Below, piece after piece: positions 13,458-18,692 of a DNA stretch of 32,000 nt (position 1 is its first letter; every line of letters starts with the position of its first letter). The stretch covers positions 180,001 through 212,000 of the forward strand of contig JBHLRO010000002.1 in NCBI GenBank assembly GCA_048882505.1, read 5' to 3'. Under the pieces are notes generated by a model. The model saw only the letters and a list, made by a program, of their open reading frames with translations, did no database searches and had not been told where the DNA came from. This DNA is from Candidatus Thorarchaeota archaeon (GTDB lineage: Archaea; Asgardarchaeota; Heimdallarchaeia; Hodarchaeales; Hodarchaeaceae). The position numbers and the translations under genes were made by a program.

Positions 13458-13811
13458 CCAATACCATTTTAAATGATCAGGATTTAAAAAAACACTTACA
13501 AAAACTTCGCACTCTTAATAAATGTCTGTAAGTCCTATACCGAGTATTCAAATGCTAGATCAGATAATTTTAATGTTTACTTCTTCTAGCAGATATAGAG
13601 CACTTGAAAACGACGTTCTTTGTAATAACAGAAGAACAATGTGTAGGAAAACCAGTAAGATTGCGGAATATTTGAAAGAAACTTTTATGACAAAAAAAAC
13701 GGCCAAAAACAACTTAAATATCGAAGGGTAATTAACCCCGTTCCGAACCCATTCCAAAGAAATTGACATAGATATCCATATGCATTCCCTTATTCAGCGA
13801 ATCTGTCACAG

Positions 13812-14843
13812 ATGGGCATGAGGTTTTTTTCCGTGTCACTATTGGCCAATTTTATTGATGACGAGATCATGACGGTTCTTAACGTCAAGCTCAATGAGGC
13901 TATCAATGGAATGACCAGTCCTACCCGCGAACGAATTCGTGAATTTATTTTCAACTCCAAAGGAAAGCAGCTGCGCCCTGCTCTAATCGCGGTAACCACT
14001 AAGATTTTGGTAGATAATGTAGATTATCGGGAGGAAGCTATGGAGCGATCGTACAATGCAGCGATAGCCATAGAACTCTTGCATAATATGACCCTAATCC
14101 ACGATGATCTGATTGATCGTGCACCGCTACGACGAGGGCGTAAAGCGTTCCACATTGTACATGGAACGGATCGTGCACTTCATGACGGGGATATCCTTCA
14201 TGCGTACGCCTTAACCCTCCTGAAAGAGGAACCTACATTGGACTTGGTACTCGATTACTCTTATCAGGTTAGCCTAGGTAACGCGATCGAATTAGAGGAT
14301 CGCTTAGATCAAAACTTTGGGTTCGACCTGGATCATGTGATCCGTATCATGGAGTTAAAGACTGCGATCGTATTTGCAGGATGCGTGAAGCTCGGATGTT
14401 TTGCTGGTCGTCGTGAAGATCTCTTCACCGAACGCGTTCATGATGCCATAGTCGCCGCAGGGATAGCGTTTCAGATTCAAGATGATTTTTTAGACATTCG
14501 GGGCGATCAAGAGCAATTTGGTAAAATTGCTTACTGGGATATCCAAGAGAGTAAACGAAATCTCTTTCTATACTTCGCATTACAGACAGATCATGCAGAA
14601 CGGGTTAAAGAGATCTATAACAAGCCTGTTGGTGAAAAAACCGAGGAGGAGGTGCGTGAAATCCTAAAGATTTTTCGTAGTGCCAGTCTCCAGGTTCAAG
14701 AGGTGCGAAACAAATACCTGGAATTTTCACTACGTGAATTGGCCACTATTCAAGATAATCTAGATGCAGAAGATACGGCCGCGCAGGAACTCTTCGATTT
14801 CCTTCAGATTCTTGTACGAATCTTGGTTGAAAGAGAAAAATAA
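13812..14843 (+). CDS. idsA: Polyprenyl diphosphate synthase (GGPP synthase-like, trans-IPPS)
   Basis: GKQLRP, first Asp-rich motif HDDLID..RRG, KT motif and second Asp-rich motif QIQDDFLD. Product chain length cannot be determined from sequence alone. Confidence 0.88.
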   Translation: MGMRFFSVSLLANFIDDEIMTVLNVKLNEAINGMTSPTRERIREFIFNSKGKQLRPALIAVTTKILVDNVDYREEAMERSYNAAIAIELLHNMTLIHDDLIDRAPLRRGRKAFHIVHGTDRALHDGDILHAYALTLLKEEPTLDLVLDYSYQVSLGNAIELEDRLDQNFGFDLDHVIRIMELKTAIVFAGCVKLGCFAGRREDLFTERVHDAIVAAGIAFQIQDDFLDIRGDQEQFGKIAYWDIQESKRNLFLYFALQTDHAERVKEIYNKPVGEKTEEEVREILKIFRSASLQVQEVRNKYLEFSLRELATIQDNLDAEDTAAQELFDFLQILVRILVEREK

Positions 14844-15089
14844 TCATGTACCAAGCGTATCAAAGATGAACGTCAGTTCTTCGGCACTCTCTTTGTTAAA
14901 CAGCGGGAAGAGTGAGTTTTTCATTCACTAATCTGTGTACCTTTCCTCCTTTCCACACAACATTTTTAATACGTGAAATAGACTGGAGTCCGACTTGTAA
15001 TAAGATCCTGACCTGCGAGATCCGAAGCCGCAAAGACGGTTGCTTCCGCCTCCTAGCGCATTTGGTGAATATTTTCTACCACTGTTCAT

Positions 15090-15116
15090 AAAAATGAGTC
15101 AAGAAAAATGAGTCAA
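15090..15116 (+). repeat. 13-bp direct repeat AAAAATGAGTCAA overlapping the start codon; creates the uORF MSQEK* (15094-15111)
   Basis: Copies at 15090-15102 and 15104-15116. The uORF stop TGA (15109-15111) overlaps the ATG at 15108. Confidence 0.6.
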
Positions 15117-15971
15117 CGCACACCTACACATAAGTACACTATTGAATTCGATCAAAGTTTATGGACAAACCTCGTTGATGTCGCAGGACACGGTAACATC
15201 AAGCAGTTTATTATCCAAGCCCTTACAGTTGCTTTAGAAGCTTACACAGTGAAAGCTATCATCTTATGTGGAGGGAAAGGGACTGGATTTCGACCATTTT
15301 CAATAGCTACTCCTCCCGTGATGCTACCAATAGGTTATAAGCCCATAATAGAGTATTCAATTGATTTACTGCGTAAGCACGCGTTAACTGACATCTTTCT
15401 GGCAGTAGGTTATCTTCGGGAGCATATTCGCACTCAATTTTCAGAACATACCATCCCTGAGGTCAACATGCGCTATGTGATTGAAGATAAGCCTCTTGAT
15501 ACCGCTGGTGCGCTGCTAAATGTGAAAGCCCAACACAAATCTAAATTTCAAACTACTTTTCTTGTAATGAATGGTGATTTGGTCACCAATTGTAATTTAA
15601 CGGAGTTGTTAAAATTCCATCGTGCGGTCGTGGATAAGAGTGGAGTTGGTTCCATGTTTATCTTGAAAACAGAACAAGGCGGCCAAGTTGAAATTGGAGA
15701 TGAAGATGAACAAGTAGTTCGATTTGCCGCGGGTGGGAAGAAGAACTACACACTAACTAACGCTGGAATCTATGTATTTGAGCCCGAAATATTTTCCTAT
15801 ATTGAAAAAGACGTTTCCTCCTTAGAAAAAGATGTGTTTCCGGCCCTGGCTAAGGATGGAGTACTATATGGGTATGTCCCCGATACTCCAGTCTATTGGA
15901 ACCATATCAATTCTCTAGAAAAGTACACCCAAGGTTGGGCAGATTTCTTGGCTGGCAAGCTTAATTTTTGA
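15108..15971 (+). CDS. Ribbon-helix-helix domain fused to a degenerate sugar-1-phosphate nucleotidyltransferase (GMPP-like)
   Basis: The N-terminal ~45 aa show an RHH pattern (KYTIEF-DQSLWTNLVDVA-G-NIKQFIIQAL). Nucleotidyltransferase motifs follow: ILCGGKGTGFRP, LDTAGAL, VMNGD and NAGIYVF. There is no LbH domain. Confidence 0.8.
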   Translation: MSQRTPTHKYTIEFDQSLWTNLVDVAGHGNIKQFIIQALTVALEAYTVKAIILCGGKGTGFRPFSIATPPVMLPIGYKPIIEYSIDLLRKHALTDIFLAVGYLREHIRTQFSEHTIPEVNMRYVIEDKPLDTAGALLNVKAQHKSKFQTTFLVMNGDLVTNCNLTELLKFHRAVVDKSGVGSMFILKTEQGGQVEIGDEDEQVVRFAAGGKKNYTLTNAGIYVFEPEIFSYIEKDVSSLEKDVFPALAKDGVLYGYVPDTPVYWNHINSLEKYTQGWADFLAGKLNF

Positions 15972-17527
15972 TTTTTCTCTGCAGGCTGAAAACCTTGCTC
16001 ATTTTATGGCTAAACCGTATTATTTCATGGATAACTTTAGGGATATCCCTTCTAGTCTTAGGTTTTATCCCAATTTACCTAGTATTCAGTTTTGTGGAGA
16101 TCGTAACATACCCTGATTATTTAGGTATTGTTTTAAATTTCCTCCTCCTAGCCATTGAAGCATTTGGTTATCTTTTTGCCTTCTACCTACTTTATATGAT
16201 TTCTGGAGCCTTCAAATTTCGGTCTCAACCCCCGTTCCCCCAGACAGTTACCTCGTTTCACCCTTCGTTTAGTATCATAGTTCCATCTCATGGCACTCCA
16301 TTCCCAATATTGAAAGAGACCCTGCTTGGGACCCTCGCCTTAAAGTATGATGACTATGAGATAATTGTAAGTGACAACGGAGTTGATCCGAAAGTTACAG
16401 ATCAATTACGTGAGTTTTGTGAGGAACATCAAATCCCGTTTCATTGGAAGCCGGATTCACGGGGGTTTAAGGCGGGGAATATAAATGCGGTACTTGAAAA
16501 AACTCATGGGGATCTGATCGTAATCCTAGACTCAGATCATATTCCAGTGCCTGATCTGCTAACACTGTTCGCAGAAGTCATGGGAGACGAAACTATAGGG
16601 TACATTCAAACTAAAGTATCTTACAGAAATTTAACAAAAATTTATCAGGCTGCAAACTCGATTCTTTATTCTCAATTCTTTGAAGTGTTTGAGGCGGCAA
16701 AAGACCCTCGTGGTGTGGCTTTGTTCAATGGAACCACAGGTTGTTTTCGTCGGGATGCTTTGTTAGCGGTTGACGGATTTTCGGAAGAAACGCTGATCGA
16801 AGATATTGATACATCCATGAAAATTCTAGCACGAGGCTACACTGGCCGTTTTCTCAACGTGGTAGGATCTCGTGGTCTGGTTCCCGAATCCGCAAAGGGA
16901 CAGATCATTCAATTGTGGCGTTGGGCCCATGGAGCATGTAGCCTCCTTCGGCTTCGGTTTCGGGAATTGTTTAAATCACCCCACTTGAGCTGGCCGAAAA
17001 AATTAGAACTCATCCTCAATACAATGGCCTTTTTCTCTGGAATTAGTATTGTTCTGTTGATCTCATTGCTTGCGCTTTTAGTTTTGTTCGATATGCCCTT
17101 TATCCGACCTGTCATTTTCGAATTTCATTTGGGATATCTACTACCCAGTTTAGTAGGTATTTCCTATTCCATGGCAGCTTTCTTGGCCATACTTTGGGAA
17201 CCTCGACAGCAGCATCTCGTGATCCGACTTCTTCAACTGATTCCTTTCTATTTATTCTCTTTAGGAACGTTTCTCTATTTGATCTCGGGGATAGTGGAAG
17301 GTCTCCTGTTAAAGAACACTCCACTAACTGAAGGCAGTGTTTGGAATCGAGAGATTCGAGTTGTCCGGAATTCATTGTTTGCACTCCTCTTCTGTGGAAT
17401 CTTAGTCCTGATTGGCATCTTCGGAGCAACTCATAGCTTCGGCCTTTTTGTTGCAGGTGGCGCTGCATTCTGGATGTTGGCACCCCTTGTTCTAATCTAT
17501 GAAGAAGTTAACCCCCCCGAACAATAG
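15968..17527 (+). CDS. Processive GT2 glycosyltransferase, cellulose-synthase (BcsA/CesA)-like
   Basis: FKAGNIN, DSDH (DxD), IED catalytic-base motif and QLWRW (QxxRW). Two N-terminal and several C-terminal TM helices; no PilZ domain. Overlaps the upstream gene by 4 nt. Confidence 0.9.
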   Translation: MIFLCRLKTLLILWLNRIISWITLGISLLVLGFIPIYLVFSFVEIVTYPDYLGIVLNFLLLAIEAFGYLFAFYLLYMISGAFKFRSQPPFPQTVTSFHPSFSIIVPSHGTPFPILKETLLGTLALKYDDYEIIVSDNGVDPKVTDQLREFCEEHQIPFHWKPDSRGFKAGNINAVLEKTHGDLIVILDSDHIPVPDLLTLFAEVMGDETIGYIQTKVSYRNLTKIYQAANSILYSQFFEVFEAAKDPRGVALFNGTTGCFRRDALLAVDGFSEETLIEDIDTSMKILARGYTGRFLNVVGSRGLVPESAKGQIIQLWRWAHGACSLLRLRFRELFKSPHLSWPKKLELILNTMAFFSGISIVLLISLLALLVLFDMPFIRPVIFEFHLGYLLPSLVGISYSMAAFLAILWEPRQQHLVIRLLQLIPFYLFSLGTFLYLISGIVEGLLLKNTPLTEGSVWNREIRVVRNSLFALLFCGILVLIGIFGATHSFGLFVAGGAAFWMLAPLVLIYEEVNPPEQ

Positions 17528-18453: not shown

Positions 18454-18633
18454 CTAGAATGAGTCCCGGGAATGAGATATCAGAGTTCCCTGAAGGCTCC
18501 AGAGCTCATCTTTCAACATATCCCGAATGGCAAAACGGATGGCTTCACTGCGATTCGGATAACGACCAGAGCGAACTAGTTCGTCTAGTCCTTGTACAGC
18601 TTCCGGTGGTAGGTGGACCGTGATCAGTCTCAT
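18454..18633 (-). CDS. Small ribbon-helix-helix transcription factor, CdrS/aCcr1-like
   Basis: MRLITVHLP...GLDELVRSGRYPNRSEAIRFAIRDML is the signature of the conserved archaeal CdrS/aCcr1 RHH family. GGAG RBS upstream of ATG 18633; alternative start at 18663. Confidence 0.85.
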   Translation of the reverse strand: MRLITVHLPPEAVQGLDELVRSGRYPNRSEAIRFAIRDMLKDELWSLQGTLISHSRDSF

Positions 18634-18692
18634 GTAATTTACATCTCCAGTAGGATCTGACATTCATGATAATTCTATTTTTTTAATAAAGG

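What the first reader, a model, noticed from the sequence alone, without database searches (positions are those of the whole stretch)
15108..17527. RHH fused to a pseudo-nucleotidyltransferase: a candidate nucleotide-sugar-sensing transcription factor coupled to a cellulose-synthase-like GT2
Seen: an N-terminal ribbon-helix-helix pattern. The signature GGxGTRLxPLTxxxPK reads GGKGTGFRPFSIATPP, so both the conserved Arg and Lys are lost, while NGD and the rest of the fold remain. The gene overlaps a QxxRW processive synthase lacking PilZ. Established: that Arg and Lys are needed for pyrophosphorylase catalysis in RmlA/GlmU/GMPP enzymes, and eukaryotes use non-catalytic versions of this fold as regulators (GMPPA, eIF2B gamma/epsilon). 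Inference: a one-component regulator that senses NDP-sugar or NTP and controls exopolysaccharide synthesis, possibly in place of c-di-GMP control.
Basis: partly seen in the sequence, partly recalled or inferred. Interest (0 to 1): 0.72.

Follow-up and report, generated by a model that had tools for sequence, protein, structure and literature searches.

The report
DNA-binding domain fused to dead sugar-nucleotide enzyme
In an Asgard (Hodarchaeales) archaeon, a gene annotated as a sugar-activating enzyme has lost four catalytic motifs and carries a very conserved DNA-binding-type domain, so it is most likely the sensor and regulator of a three-gene module that also holds a polyprenyl synthase and a cellulose-synthase-like membrane enzyme; nothing has been tested at the bench.

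Summary
ORF 15108-15971 (287 aa) has a 47-residue N-terminal domain that is predicted with confidence as strand-helix-helix. In an exhaustive fold search it matches almost only ribbon-helix-helix (RHH) proteins such as PutA, NikR and Arc. The rest is a sugar-nucleotidyltransferase fold, closest to GDP-mannose pyrophosphorylases.

All 52 orthologues lack the catalytic Arg, the Lys, the EKP motif and the WxDxG Asp. They keep the glycine loop and NGD. Seven of eight paralogues in the same genome keep Arg and Lys. The N-terminus is real: its ATG is conserved in 20 of 20 genomes, and the RHH core is the best-conserved part of the protein.

The module is present in 20 of 22 genomes of the genus (the window's included), and all three genes are absent from the other two.

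Loss of Arg and Lys does not track the RHH fusion. Fused relatives in Heimdallarchaeaceae and DPANN keep both, and a sister form is intermediate.

I found no operator, so DNA binding, the ligand and the product remain inferred. The scan has noted this family before on other DNA; I found no paper on it.

The parts
13708..13723 (+). BRE/TATA-like element (CTTAAATAT), about 91 nt upstream of the polyprenyl synthase ATG. It is the candidate promoter of the module.
   Evidence: It aligns with the block gAAAAAGGCTATyGGTTtAGGAAACcTATTAAATA that is conserved upstream of the synthase in the orthologous loci. The window copy is partly diverged. No function has been shown.
13812..14843 (+). Trans-polyprenyl diphosphate synthase (343 aa), first gene of the module. 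It is a dedicated paralogue, not the only one in the genome.
   Evidence: Pfam polyprenyl_synt, E 2.4e-51. GGPP-synthase-like, but below the equivalog cut-off. It lies upstream of the pseudo-enzyme in 20/20 genomes. The genome has a second PF00348 gene. G058 and G068, which lack the other two genes, have only a 30-32% identical paralogue.
15090..15116 (+). Direct repeat AAAAATGAGTCAA x2, 14 nt apart, holding the palindrome TGAGTCA twice. The second copy contains the start codon. The first copy opens a 5-codon mini-ORF whose stop overlaps the ATG.
   Evidence: (family D1). It is also present in the 95% identical orthologue L018. Function unknown.
15108..15248 (+). N-terminal ribbon-helix-helix domain (aa 1-47): a basic arm, strand HKYTIEF (aa 8-14), helix 16-26, a GHGN turn and helix 31-47.
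   Evidence: AF2 models. The exhaustive fold search returns RHH proteins. Column identity is 93% among 52 orthologues, and 99.7% for the strand. The ATG is conserved in 20/20 genomes. This is the only copy of this RHH subtype in the genome.
15249..15971 (+). Degenerate sugar-1-phosphate nucleotidyltransferase-fold domain (aa 48-287) without a C-terminal hexapeptide domain. Presumed ligand-binding module.
   Evidence: Pfam PF00483. Foldseek and phmmer place it nearest to GMPPB, VTC1, tlr0611 and Leishmania GDP-MP.
15270..15317 (+). Degenerate signature loop GGKGTGFRPFSIATPP. G60 replaces the catalytic Arg and P70 replaces the Lys.
   Evidence: Position 60 is S/G in 52/52 orthologues and R in 30/31 other homologues. 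Position 70 is A/P/S in 52/52 and K in 31/31.
15570..15578 (+). Retained NGD motif (D157).
   Evidence: D157 is invariant in all 98 aligned sequences.
15729..15737 (+). AGG in place of the EKP motif, whose Lys binds the sugar phosphate.
   Evidence: None of the 52 orthologues has EKP; 30/31 other homologues do. This is the least conserved segment of the protein.
15897..15911 (+). WNHIN in place of WxDxG. H266 replaces the metal-binding Asp.
   Evidence: H in 52/52 orthologues against D in 31/31 others. The new motif is 97% conserved.
15968..17527 (+). BcsA-like membrane GT2 (519 aa) with intact D, KAGN, DxD, ED and QLWRW motifs. It has 2-3 N-terminal and about 5 C-terminal hydrophobic segments and no PilZ domain.
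   Evidence: Pfam GT2 families. Best PDB match is BcsA 7lby, E 4.9e-26. TIGR03030 CelA scores 141 bits, far below its 699-bit cut-off. The motifs are invariant in the orthologues. It co-occurs with the pseudo-enzyme in the same 19/21 other genus genomes.

Best explanation
The 287-aa protein is a non-catalytic, ligand-sensing regulator built from an RHH domain and a remodelled sugar-nucleotidyltransferase domain. It is dedicated to the three-gene module polyprenyl synthase / pseudo-enzyme / BcsA-like GT2.

Proposed mechanism, all of it inferred:
1. The RHH domains of two chains pair into a DNA-reading beta-ribbon.
2. The enzyme-derived domain keeps the glycine loop, the LDTAGA segment and NGD, so it still binds a nucleotide or NDP-sugar. 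It cannot turn it over, because the Arg, the Lys, the EKP Lys and the second metal Asp are gone.
3. Ligand occupancy changes DNA affinity and so tunes transcription of the module. Synthesis of the GT2 product is thereby matched to precursor supply.

Shown by computation: the two folds, the loss of the motifs, the conservation pattern and the linkage of the module.

Inferred: dimerisation, DNA binding, which ligand is bound, and the target promoter.
For: (1) RHH fold. The N-terminal model has pLDDT 89.8. Against 48,161 chains, nearly all of the top 50 matches are RHH proteins, among them PutA-RHH 2rbf, NikR 1q5v and 2bj1, Arc and omega, at Z 4-5.8.

(2) The RHH core is the most constrained part of the protein: 93% column identity against 79% for the enzyme domain. 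The strand HKYTIEF is 99.7% conserved, and a Lys/Arg-rich arm precedes it.

(3) The N-terminus is translated. The ATG is conserved in 20/20 genomes, and most orthologues have no alternative start near the V48 position.

(4) Four catalytic motifs are lost in 52/52 orthologues, while G55, G56, G58, P63, P69, T132, G134 and D157 stay invariant. The replacement WNHIN is itself 97% conserved. That points to a remodelled site rather than a decaying one.

(5) Seven of the eight other PF00483 genes in the same genome keep the Arg and Lys, so sugar activation does not depend on this gene.

(6) The module synthase / pseudo-enzyme / GT2 has the same order and strand in 20/20 genomes. All three genes are missing together from G058 (96% complete, one contig) and G068.

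(7) Family context. The RHH-fused nucleotidyltransferases group together on a tree of the enzyme domain alone (SH-aLRT 87). Other members sit next to sugar-metabolism genes: GAPDH, FBPase and PGM/PMM. A Woesearchaeota member has two tandem ATCATA(C/T) boxes 10 bp apart between a TATA-like element and its own start.

(8) No GGDEF or PilZ domain was found in this genome, so a BcsA-like synthase here must be controlled by some other means.
Against: No operator was identified.
- The GTATGA boxes reported for DPANN/CPR relatives are absent from the module's non-coding DNA.
- A matrix built from the Heimdallarchaeaceae upstream element does not pick out the module promoter.
- The conserved promoter block shows no sign of a regulon.

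In 14 of 20 genomes the gene lies only 34-49 nt behind the synthase, inside an operon. That is an unusual position for an autoregulator.

Sequence methods do not certify the RHH. Pfam gives no hit, and hhalign to a bona fide RHH_1 family aligns in register but with probability 6.8%. Z of 4-6 is modest for any fold search.

An RHH can also serve mainly as a dimerisation device.

The neighbours (a polyprenyl synthase here, UbiA next to sister form P0124) leave open that the ligand is not an NDP-sugar.

There are no experimental data of any kind.
Confidence: 0.5

Rival explanations
1. Protein-level regulator or accessory subunit of the GT2. The pseudo-enzyme binds the donor NDP-sugar, or another nucleotide, and docks on the cytosolic face of the synthase to gate it or feed it. 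This would resemble GMPPA acting on GMPPB, or the degenerate GGDEF receptor PelD in Pel synthesis. In this reading the RHH only makes the dimer and does not read DNA.
For: The gene and the GT2 are strictly adjacent and are present or absent together. The stop and start codons overlap or abut in about 9 of 20 genomes, which suggests translational coupling and matched stoichiometry. The gene lies inside the operon rather than at its head. No operator was found. The extreme C-terminal motif GW.D...GKL.F is conserved and could be a docking element.
Against: The RHH strand and the residues expected to face DNA (K9, T11, E13, plus H8) are almost invariant, and a basic arm precedes them. That is hard to explain by dimerisation alone. 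RHH-fused relatives in Heimdallarchaeaceae and DPANN have no adjacent GT2, so the family's conserved function does not depend on this partner.
Confidence: 0.2
2. It is still an enzyme, as the databases annotate it ('NDP-sugar synthase'). It would make the donor for the GT2 with an unusual active site, using for example R62, K211 or H266, or it would catalyse a different nucleotidyl transfer. The RHH would add feedback control, as in PutA or BirA.
For: The cluster logic fits: an activating enzyme next to a glycosyltransferase. The fold, the glycine loop and the Asp of NGD are intact. R62 (49/52) and K211 (42/52, R in 6) are conserved close to the lost residues. DPANN fused relatives keep a complete catalytic signature and sit next to PGM/PMM. 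An ancestral fused protein that was both enzyme and regulator is therefore plausible.
Against: Four separate motifs are lost at once in 52/52 orthologues. From published work on RmlA, GlmU and ADP-glucose pyrophosphorylase, recalled and not re-read here, these motifs bind the NTP phosphates, the sugar phosphate and the second metal. The ex-EKP segment is the least conserved part of the protein, as expected when a sugar-phosphate site is abandoned. Eight other family members are available in the genome.
Confidence: 0.15
3. Annotation artefact. The true start is the GTG at V48 (VKAIILCGG...), the upstream 47 codons are not translated, and the gene is simply a short, divergent nucleotidyltransferase.
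For: A GTG sits exactly where canonical family members start. Pfam sees nothing in aa 1-48.
Against: That GTG exists only in the window and its 95% identical relative. Most of the other orthologous loci have no start codon near the position equivalent to V48, and several (e.g. L020, L024, L030, L036) have none anywhere close. The 47 residues are more conserved than the enzyme domain. The same extension is found in Heimdallarchaeaceae, Nitrososphaeria and DPANN homologues.
Confidence: 0.02

Closest known systems
NikR (nickel-responsive repressor; PDB 1q5v, 2bj1, 2ca9)
   Same: Architecture: an N-terminal RHH DNA-binding domain joined directly to a C-terminal small-molecule-binding domain, a one-component regulator. 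NikR RHH domains are among the best structural matches of the N-terminal model (Z 4.9-5.2).
   Different: The sensor domain is a nucleotidyltransferase (GT-A-like) fold, not the ACT-like metal-binding tetramerisation domain. There is no sequence-level relation. The ligand and the operator are unknown.
PutA (RHH fused to proline-utilisation enzymes; RHH-DNA complex PDB 2rbf)
   Same: An RHH is fused to a metabolic-enzyme body, and transcription is tied to the state of that body. The PutA RHH is the fourth-best structural match (Z 5.6, rmsd 2.0 A, 42 residues).
   Different: PutA is a fully active bifunctional enzyme. Here four catalytic motifs are gone. The enzyme family and the pathway are unrelated.
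GMPPA (non-catalytic paralogue that regulates GDP-mannose pyrophosphorylase GMPPB; PDB 7d72-7d74), eIF2B gamma/epsilon, and Arabidopsis KJC2 with VTC1 (8yre)
   Same: The same nucleotidyltransferase fold is reused as a non-catalytic regulatory module. The window protein matches GMPPA at E 6e-15 and eIF2B epsilon at 1e-9.
   Different: The match to the catalytic GMPPB-type enzymes is better (E 1e-22 to 4e-29). The protein lacks the C-terminal left-handed beta-helix domain. It carries an RHH that those proteins lack. There is no evidence that it pairs with a catalytic paralogue. This looks like an independent loss of catalysis, not ancestry.
RHH-nucleotidyltransferase fusions of DPANN archaea, CPR bacteria, Methanobacteriota, Nitrososphaerota and Bathyarchaeota (database clusters; no paper found)
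   Same: The same two-domain architecture at about 280 aa. ESM Atlas clusters carry PF00483, and some also carry PF01402 (RHH_1): 18% of members in a mostly CPR-bacterial cluster and 80% in a Methanobacteriota cluster. Two clusters align structurally over residues 5-286/287. These proteins group with the window protein on the enzyme-domain tree.
   Different: The Hodarchaeales clade has the most complete catalytic erosion (four motifs). Its RHH subtype is not detected by Pfam. Its gene context, a polyprenyl synthase plus a BcsA-like GT2, is not seen in the other lineages I examined.
BcsA, bacterial cellulose synthase catalytic subunit (PDB 7lby, 4hg6) - for the neighbouring gene
   Same: Membrane-embedded GT2 with D, KAGN, DxD, ED and QxxRW motifs. 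E 4.9e-26 over aa 28-396.
   Different: It is 519 aa with fewer N-terminal helices. It has no PilZ domain, TED reads IED and FFCGS reads LFNGTT. It scores far below the CelA equivalog cut-off (141 against 699 bits). The product is unknown. The Glyco_transf_21 hit and the dedicated polyprenyl synthase allow a lipid-linked product.

Membership tests
Sugar-1-phosphate nucleotidyltransferases (Pfam PF00483; RmlA/GlmU/GMPP-type enzymes) | Family HMM match and Rossmann-like GT-A fold | tested here: met
   PF00483 E 3e-27, 96 bits against a 21.2-bit cut-off. Foldseek E 1.5e-20, TM 0.73 to 8x7s, and GMPPB 7d74.
Sugar-1-phosphate nucleotidyltransferases (Pfam PF00483; RmlA/GlmU/GMPP-type enzymes) | Catalytic Arg in the G-x-G-T-R loop | tested here: not met
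   G60 in the window. S or G in 52/52 orthologues, R in 30/31 other homologues.
Sugar-1-phosphate nucleotidyltransferases (Pfam PF00483; RmlA/GlmU/GMPP-type enzymes) | Catalytic Lys of the xxPK motif | tested here: not met
   P70 in the window. A, P or S in 52/52 orthologues, K in 31/31 other homologues.
Sugar-1-phosphate nucleotidyltransferases (Pfam PF00483; RmlA/GlmU/GMPP-type enzymes) | EKP motif (the Lys binds the sugar phosphate) | tested here: not met
   AGG at aa 208-210. Absent from 52/52 orthologues, present in 30/31 other homologues.
Sugar-1-phosphate nucleotidyltransferases (Pfam PF00483; RmlA/GlmU/GMPP-type enzymes) | Asp of WxDxG (second metal ligand) | tested here: not met
   H266 in 52/52 orthologues, D in 31/31 other homologues.
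Sugar-1-phosphate nucleotidyltransferases (Pfam PF00483; RmlA/GlmU/GMPP-type enzymes) | Glycine-rich nucleotide loop and Asp of (N)GD | tested here: met
   G55, G56 and D157 are invariant in all 98 aligned sequences; G58 in 51/52 orthologues and 31/31 others.
Sugar-1-phosphate nucleotidyltransferases (Pfam PF00483; RmlA/GlmU/GMPP-type enzymes) | Pyrophosphorylase activity | not testable with these tools
   Needs an enzyme assay.
Ribbon-helix-helix (Arc/MetJ/CopG/NikR) DNA-binding domains | Strand-helix-helix topology of about 45 residues, with a turn before helix 2 | tested here: met
   AF2 gives an extended aa 1-15, H16-26 and H31-47/49 at pLDDT about 90. Nearly all of the top 50 of 48,161 chains are RHH proteins, Z 4-5.8.
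Ribbon-helix-helix (Arc/MetJ/CopG/NikR) DNA-binding domains | Significant match to an RHH sequence family | tested here: inconclusive
   No Pfam hit for the Asgard or Nitrososphaeria N-termini. DPANN fused forms reach RHH_1 at E 0.001-0.12, below the cut-off. hhalign to a true RHH_1 family aligns in register, but with probability 6.8% and E 0.005. Stand-alone 45-74-aa relatives exist; one has weak RHH_5 and RHH_1 hits.
Ribbon-helix-helix (Arc/MetJ/CopG/NikR) DNA-binding domains | Obligate dimer forming a two-stranded antiparallel ribbon | not testable with these tools
   Needs a solution or structural experiment.
Ribbon-helix-helix (Arc/MetJ/CopG/NikR) DNA-binding domains | Sequence-specific binding to repeated operator half-sites | tested here: inconclusive
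   No convincing conserved repeat was found in the module's non-coding DNA. Binding itself needs EMSA or DAP-seq.
GMPPA / eIF2B gamma-epsilon type pseudo-nucleotidyltransferase regulators | Nucleotidyltransferase-like domain followed by a left-handed beta-helix domain | tested here: not met
   The protein ends at aa 287 with no Hexapep or GMPPB_C hit. Matches to GMPPA and eIF2B cover only the N-terminal domain.
GMPPA / eIF2B gamma-epsilon type pseudo-nucleotidyltransferase regulators | Acts in a complex with a catalytic paralogue | not tested
   No adjacent catalytic paralogue. The eight paralogues are elsewhere in the genome.
BcsA-type cellulose synthase (neighbouring gene) | D, DxD, (T)ED and QxxRW motifs in a membrane GT2 | tested here: met
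BcsA-type cellulose synthase (neighbouring gene) | C-terminal PilZ domain; score above the equivalog cut-off | tested here: not met
   No PilZ hit. TIGR03030 scores 141 bits against a 699-bit cut-off.

The most novel reading that the evidence does not exclude
The protein is a dual-output sensor. One NDP-sugar-binding (or isoprenoid-linked nucleotide-binding) pseudo-enzyme represses the module's promoter through its RHH. It also docks on the BcsA-like synthase to gate polymerisation. This would be a substrate-sensing control circuit for a processive glycan or glycolipid synthase in a lineage where no c-di-GMP machinery was found. The stepwise path from enzyme to sensor would still be visible in living relatives: full signature in DPANN, Lys lost in P0124, all four motifs lost in Hodarchaeales.
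Probability: 0.12. Interest if true: 0.8.

Novelty: new variant of a known kind. Interest (0 to 1): 0.55.

Why it matters
If the reading is right, three things follow.

1. Genome annotation is wrong for a whole family. These proteins are named 'NDP-sugar synthase' or 'nucleotidyltransferase family protein', while the Hodarchaeales members almost certainly make no sugar nucleotide.

2. It would add an enzyme-derived sensor type to the small set of understood archaeal one-component regulators. It would also give a concrete handle on how Asgard archaea control a cell-surface or lipid-linked glycan module: a dedicated polyprenyl synthase plus a BcsA-like synthase that travel together.

3. The family preserves intermediates between active fused enzymes and fully degenerate sensors. 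That makes it a tidy natural series for studying how enzymes become regulators.

The practical limit is that Hodarchaeales are uncultured, so tests must use recombinant protein.

Tried and rejected
- Homodimer prediction of aa 1-52 (complex prediction). Score 0.38 against a mark of 0.42, controls 0.00. The tool's verdict is 'no answer', so it counts neither for nor against dimerisation.
- Pfam on the N-termini. Nothing for the Asgard and Nitrososphaeria forms.
- Profile of the N-terminus against PDB sequences. No hit up to E 10.
- Foldseek of the 50-residue model against PDB. Nothing significant; ParD2, a TCP domain and ParD1 at E 6-8. The exhaustive VIA search was needed.
- hhalign against a genuine RHH_1 family. 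In register but probability 6.8%.
- Operator hunt, GTATGA boxes, a lead from earlier scan notes. None between 11743 and 16344, and no enrichment in the window (21 found against 14.3 expected).
- Operator hunt, repeats in 13458-15130. Only the start-codon direct repeat was found.
- Operator hunt, the conserved promoter block upstream of the synthase. It is not enriched elsewhere in five relatives' genomes compared with a reversed control.
- Operator hunt, apparent resemblance between the Heimdallarchaeaceae upstream element AAAAAAYCTATTGGT and the Hodarchaeales block AAAAAGGCTATYGGTT. It failed a matrix scan: coding-sequence hits scored higher, and the block ranked first in only 1 of 20 loci.
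- Hairpin or inverted repeat just upstream of the ATG in orthologues. RNAalifold predicts no consensus structure. It probably reflects a Shine-Dalgarno-like GGTGATCC-type element.
- Expression. No RNA holder was listed among public runs.
- Toxin-antitoxin reading (RHH antitoxin plus nucleotidyltransferase toxin). Rejected, because the domain is the sugar-nucleotidyltransferase fold PF00483, not the Pol-beta-type fold PF01909.
- Specific ancestry of GMPPA or eIF2B. Rejected, because catalytic GMPPB-type enzymes match better and the beta-helix domain is absent.
- Literature. Five full-text searches found no paper on an RHH-sugar-nucleotidyltransferase fusion.

Full report
WHAT IS THERE

The window is archaeal. 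It holds a TFB gene, an endonuclease dU gene and a class II ribonucleotide reductase gene. Source names of the closest homologues place it in Hodarchaeales, within the Asgard archaea (Heimdallarchaeia).

ORF 15108-15971 encodes 287 aa. ORF 15968-17527 encodes a 519-aa GT2 and overlaps the first by 4 nt. Pfam places NTP_transferase on aa 49-275 (E 3e-27) and finds nothing on aa 1-48.

IS THE N-TERMINUS REAL?

The obvious rival is an over-extended ORF, because a GTG at V48 would give a canonical MKAIILCGG start. Comparative data reject this.

- About 50 orthologues of 281-290 aa cover 98-100% of the query.
- In 20 genomes of the same genus the upstream ATG is always present. The internal GTG occurs only in the window and its 95% identical relative, and most other loci have no start codon near that position.
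- The RHH core (aa 8-47) is the most conserved part of the protein: 93% column identity against 79% for the enzyme domain. The strand HKYTIEF is 99.7% conserved.

IS IT AN RHH?

Sequence methods are weak here.

- Pfam gives no hit. Only DPANN fused relatives graze RHH_1, at E 0.001-0.12.
- hhalign against a genuine RHH_1 family, built from the window's own 18454-18663 gene, aligns strand to strand and helix to helix. The probability is only 6.8%.

Structure prediction is clearer.

- The full-length model (pLDDT 90.4) and the isolated domain (pLDDT 89.8) both give an extended segment, helix 16-26, a GHGN turn and helix 31-47/49.
- Foldseek found nothing significant.
- The exhaustive comparison with 48,161 PDB chains returned almost only RHH proteins in its top 50. 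They include TacA, CopA(SO), the PutA RHH with operator DNA, AmrZ, ORF56, NikR, Arc, omega, ParG and SvtR, at Z 4-5.8 with 40-50 of 50 residues aligned. Z is modest, as it must be for 50 residues. What persuades me is that the list is so uniform.

A profile of the domain searched against 1.84 billion representatives found more fused nucleotidyltransferases. It also found stand-alone proteins of 45-74 aa with the same pattern.

The pattern K/R9, T/S11, E13 alternating with hydrophobic Y10, I12, F14, after a Lys-rich arm, is what a DNA-reading RHH strand looks like. That last point is my own reading.

IS THE ENZYME DOMAIN DEAD?

Alignment to solved GDP-mannose pyrophosphorylases maps the residues directly. 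In the table, 'orthologues' are the 52 Hodarchaeales proteins and 'other homologues' are 31 further family members.

| Canonical element | Window | Orthologues | Other homologues |
|---|---|---|---|
| Arg of G-x-G-T-R | G60 | S or G in 52/52 | R in 30/31 |
| Lys of xxPK | P70 | A, P or S in 52/52 | K in 31/31 |
| EKP | AGG, aa 208-210 | absent in 52/52 | present in 30/31 |
| Asp of WxDxG | H266 (WNHIN) | H in 52/52 | D in 31/31 |

Retained and invariant or nearly so: G55, G56, G58, P63, P69, T132, G134, G156, D157 and W264.

WNHIN is itself 97% conserved, while the ex-EKP segment is the least conserved part. The site has been remodelled and part of it abandoned; the gene as a whole is not decaying.

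The genome carries eight other PF00483 genes, and seven of them keep the Arg and Lys.

From published work on RmlA, GlmU and ADP-glucose pyrophosphorylase, which I recall and did not re-read, the lost residues bind the NTP phosphates, the sugar phosphate and the second metal. I therefore consider catalysis of the canonical reaction very unlikely, though not excluded.

DOES THE LOSS TRACK THE FUSION?

No.

- RHH-fused homologues in Heimdallarchaeaceae read GGEGARLKP...IPK and WIDV: they keep Arg, Lys and Asp.
- Woesearchaeota forms P0073 and P0076 keep the full signature.
- Nitrososphaeria forms lose the Arg but keep Lys, EKP and Asp.
- P0124 keeps Arg, EKP and Asp but has lost the Lys.

On a tree of the enzyme domain alone, the Asgard and Nitrososphaeria fused forms group together (SH-aLRT 87). 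P0124 is sister to the Hodarchaeales clade (SH-aLRT 93). The fusion is therefore old, the erosion is stepwise, and it is complete only in this clade.

The ESM Atlas shows that the architecture is widespread. Clusters occur in Nitrososphaerota, Bathyarchaeota, Methanobacteriota (80% of members with Pfam RHH_1), Woesearchaeota and CPR bacteria.

CONTEXT

In all 20 genomes of the genus that have the gene, the order and strand are polyprenyl synthase, pseudo-enzyme, GT2.

- The spacer between synthase and pseudo-enzyme is 34-49 nt in 14 of 20 genomes. It is 264 nt in the window.
- The pseudo-enzyme and the GT2 abut or lie up to about 140 nt apart.
- Orthologues of the pseudo-enzyme and the GT2 occur in the same 19 of 21 other genus genomes. 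G058 (96% complete, a single contig) and G068 lack both.
- Those two genomes also lack the synthase orthologue. They keep only a 30-32% identical paralogue.
- The window's genome has two PF00348 genes.

The synthase is therefore a dedicated member of the module.

The GT2 is BcsA-like (E 4.9e-26 to 7lby). Its D136, KAGN, D188xD190, ED278-279 and QLWRW motifs are invariant. It has no PilZ domain and scores far below the CelA equivalog cut-off. No GGDEF or PilZ domain was found in the genome, which is 94.6% complete.

Other fused lineages have different neighbours.

- Heimdallarchaeaceae: an aminotransferase and L7Ae.
- Nitrososphaeria: divergent from GAPDH, with a GT2 and a TackOD1 protein nearby. 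That GT2 is only 23% identical to the window's.
- Woesearchaeota: divergent from FBPase and followed by PGM/PMM.
- P0124: directly after a UbiA prenyltransferase.

MECHANISM

The best-supported reading is a one-component regulator: RHH dimer on DNA, enzyme-derived pocket as sensor, target the module itself. I give it a confidence of about 0.5.

Its weakest point is that I could not find an operator.

- GTATGA boxes, reported in earlier scan notes for DPANN/CPR members, are absent here. I did see two ATCATA(C/T) boxes 10 bp apart in an independent Woesearchaeota locus.
- The conserved promoter block upstream of the synthase is specific to that locus and gives no evidence of a regulon.
- A tempting resemblance to a conserved Heimdallarchaeaceae upstream element failed a matrix test.

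Rivals:
- A protein-level partner of the GT2, with the RHH used only for dimerisation (0.2).
- A still-active or differently active enzyme (0.15).
- A mis-called start (0.02).

COMPARISON WITH KNOWN SYSTEMS

The protein works like NikR (RHH plus a ligand domain) and PutA (RHH plus an enzyme body). It parallels GMPPA and eIF2B gamma/epsilon as a non-catalytic reuse of this fold. It is not a member of any of those families; see the membership rows.

Five full-text searches found no description of an RHH-sugar-nucleotidyltransferase fusion.

The scan has noted the family before on other DNA. That includes an orthologue with the same four changes and a reading of the same three-gene cluster as a plain polysaccharide pathway. 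My motif data contradict that second reading for the middle gene.

VERDICT

It is a new variant of a known kind: an RHH one-component regulator with a pseudo-enzyme sensor, in an Asgard-specific module with a dedicated polyprenyl synthase and a BcsA-like GT2.

Interest is moderate to good, limited by the lack of an operator, a ligand or any experiment.

Noticed in passing
window 15090-15116: Tandem direct repeat AAAAATGAGTCAA x2, 14 nt apart. Each copy holds the perfect palindrome TGAGTCA. The first copy opens a 5-codon mini-ORF (ATG AGT CAA GAA AAA TGA) whose stop overlaps the real ATG. It is shared with the 95% identical relative L018 but not with more distant orthologues. It could be a small duplication, a coupling uORF or a binding site.
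   Followed up: partly
L019 / L001 (genome G056, a 3.2-Mb single contig; record CP070760.1): The GT2 orthologue is split here. aa 8-308 lie next to the pseudo-enzyme and aa 347-518 lie about 31 kb away. Gene calls in L001 also show a shortened polyprenyl synthase of 206 aa. The pseudo-enzyme itself is intact. The module may be breaking up in that genome.
   Followed up: no
L020-L035, about 100-130 nt upstream of the polyprenyl synthase start; window 13690-13723: A block of about 35 nt, gAAAAAGGCTATyGGTTtAGGAAACcTATTAAATA (BRE/TATA plus upstream sequence), is conserved across subclades whose proteins are only about 61% identical. The first CTAT/GTAT copy changes together with the second one 15-16 nt downstream. 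In each genome the best match is at this locus only.
   Followed up: partly
L022, L024, L025, L027: about 26 nt downstream of that TATA element: An ATG opens a short reading frame with a conserved beginning, M-(I/T)-E-(G/S/C)-H-(T/S)-(A/T)-(V/I). It is placed as a leaderless transcript would start. In L024 and L026 the same stretch forms the palindrome GGTCACA-N4-TGTGA(T/C)C. It could be a leader peptide or a regulatory hairpin of the module.
   Followed up: no
L020-L035, 3-20 nt upstream of the pseudo-enzyme ATG: Short inverted repeats whose arms change together (TGGGAT..ATCCCA, TGGAA..TTCCA, TGAGAA..TTTTCA) overlap a Shine-Dalgarno-like element in the 34-49-nt spacer. RNAalifold gave no consensus structure.
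   Followed up: partly
L002, L037-L043, L046 (Heimdallarchaeaceae), 95-158 nt upstream of their RHH-nucleotidyltransferase gene: The element AATTAAAAAAAYCTATTGGT is conserved in the spacer shared with a divergent aminotransferase gene. In four loci the perfect 12-nt palindrome AGATGTACATCT follows it. It is a candidate operator for that catalytically better preserved branch.
   Followed up: partly
L006 5926-5946 (Woesearchaeota): Two tandem boxes, ATCATAC and ATCATAT, lie 10 nt apart between a TATA-like element and the start of an RHH-nucleotidyltransferase that keeps its full catalytic signature. The gene is divergent from FBPase (glpX) and followed by PGM/PMM. This fits the GTATGA boxes of earlier scan notes.
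   Followed up: partly
contig of P0124 (ENA ERZ23498361, no DNA available): The sister form of the Hodarchaeales clade keeps Arg, EKP and Asp but has lost the Lys. It lies 44 nt behind a UbiA prenyltransferase and faces a UbiE-like methyltransferase. This is a second link between this protein family and polyprenyl metabolism.
   Followed up: no
L004 / L005 (Nitrososphaeria): The RHH-nucleotidyltransferase is divergent from GAPDH. An inverted repeat TACATA-N7-TATGTA lies just upstream of its start. A GT2 plus a TackOD1-domain gene pair lies two genes away.
   Followed up: no
window 18454-18663 (-): A small bona fide RHH_1 protein (PF01402, E 5.7e-9) is widely conserved in Hodarchaeales as a form of about 60 aa that starts at the internal Met. 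I used it only as an RHH reference.
   Followed up: no
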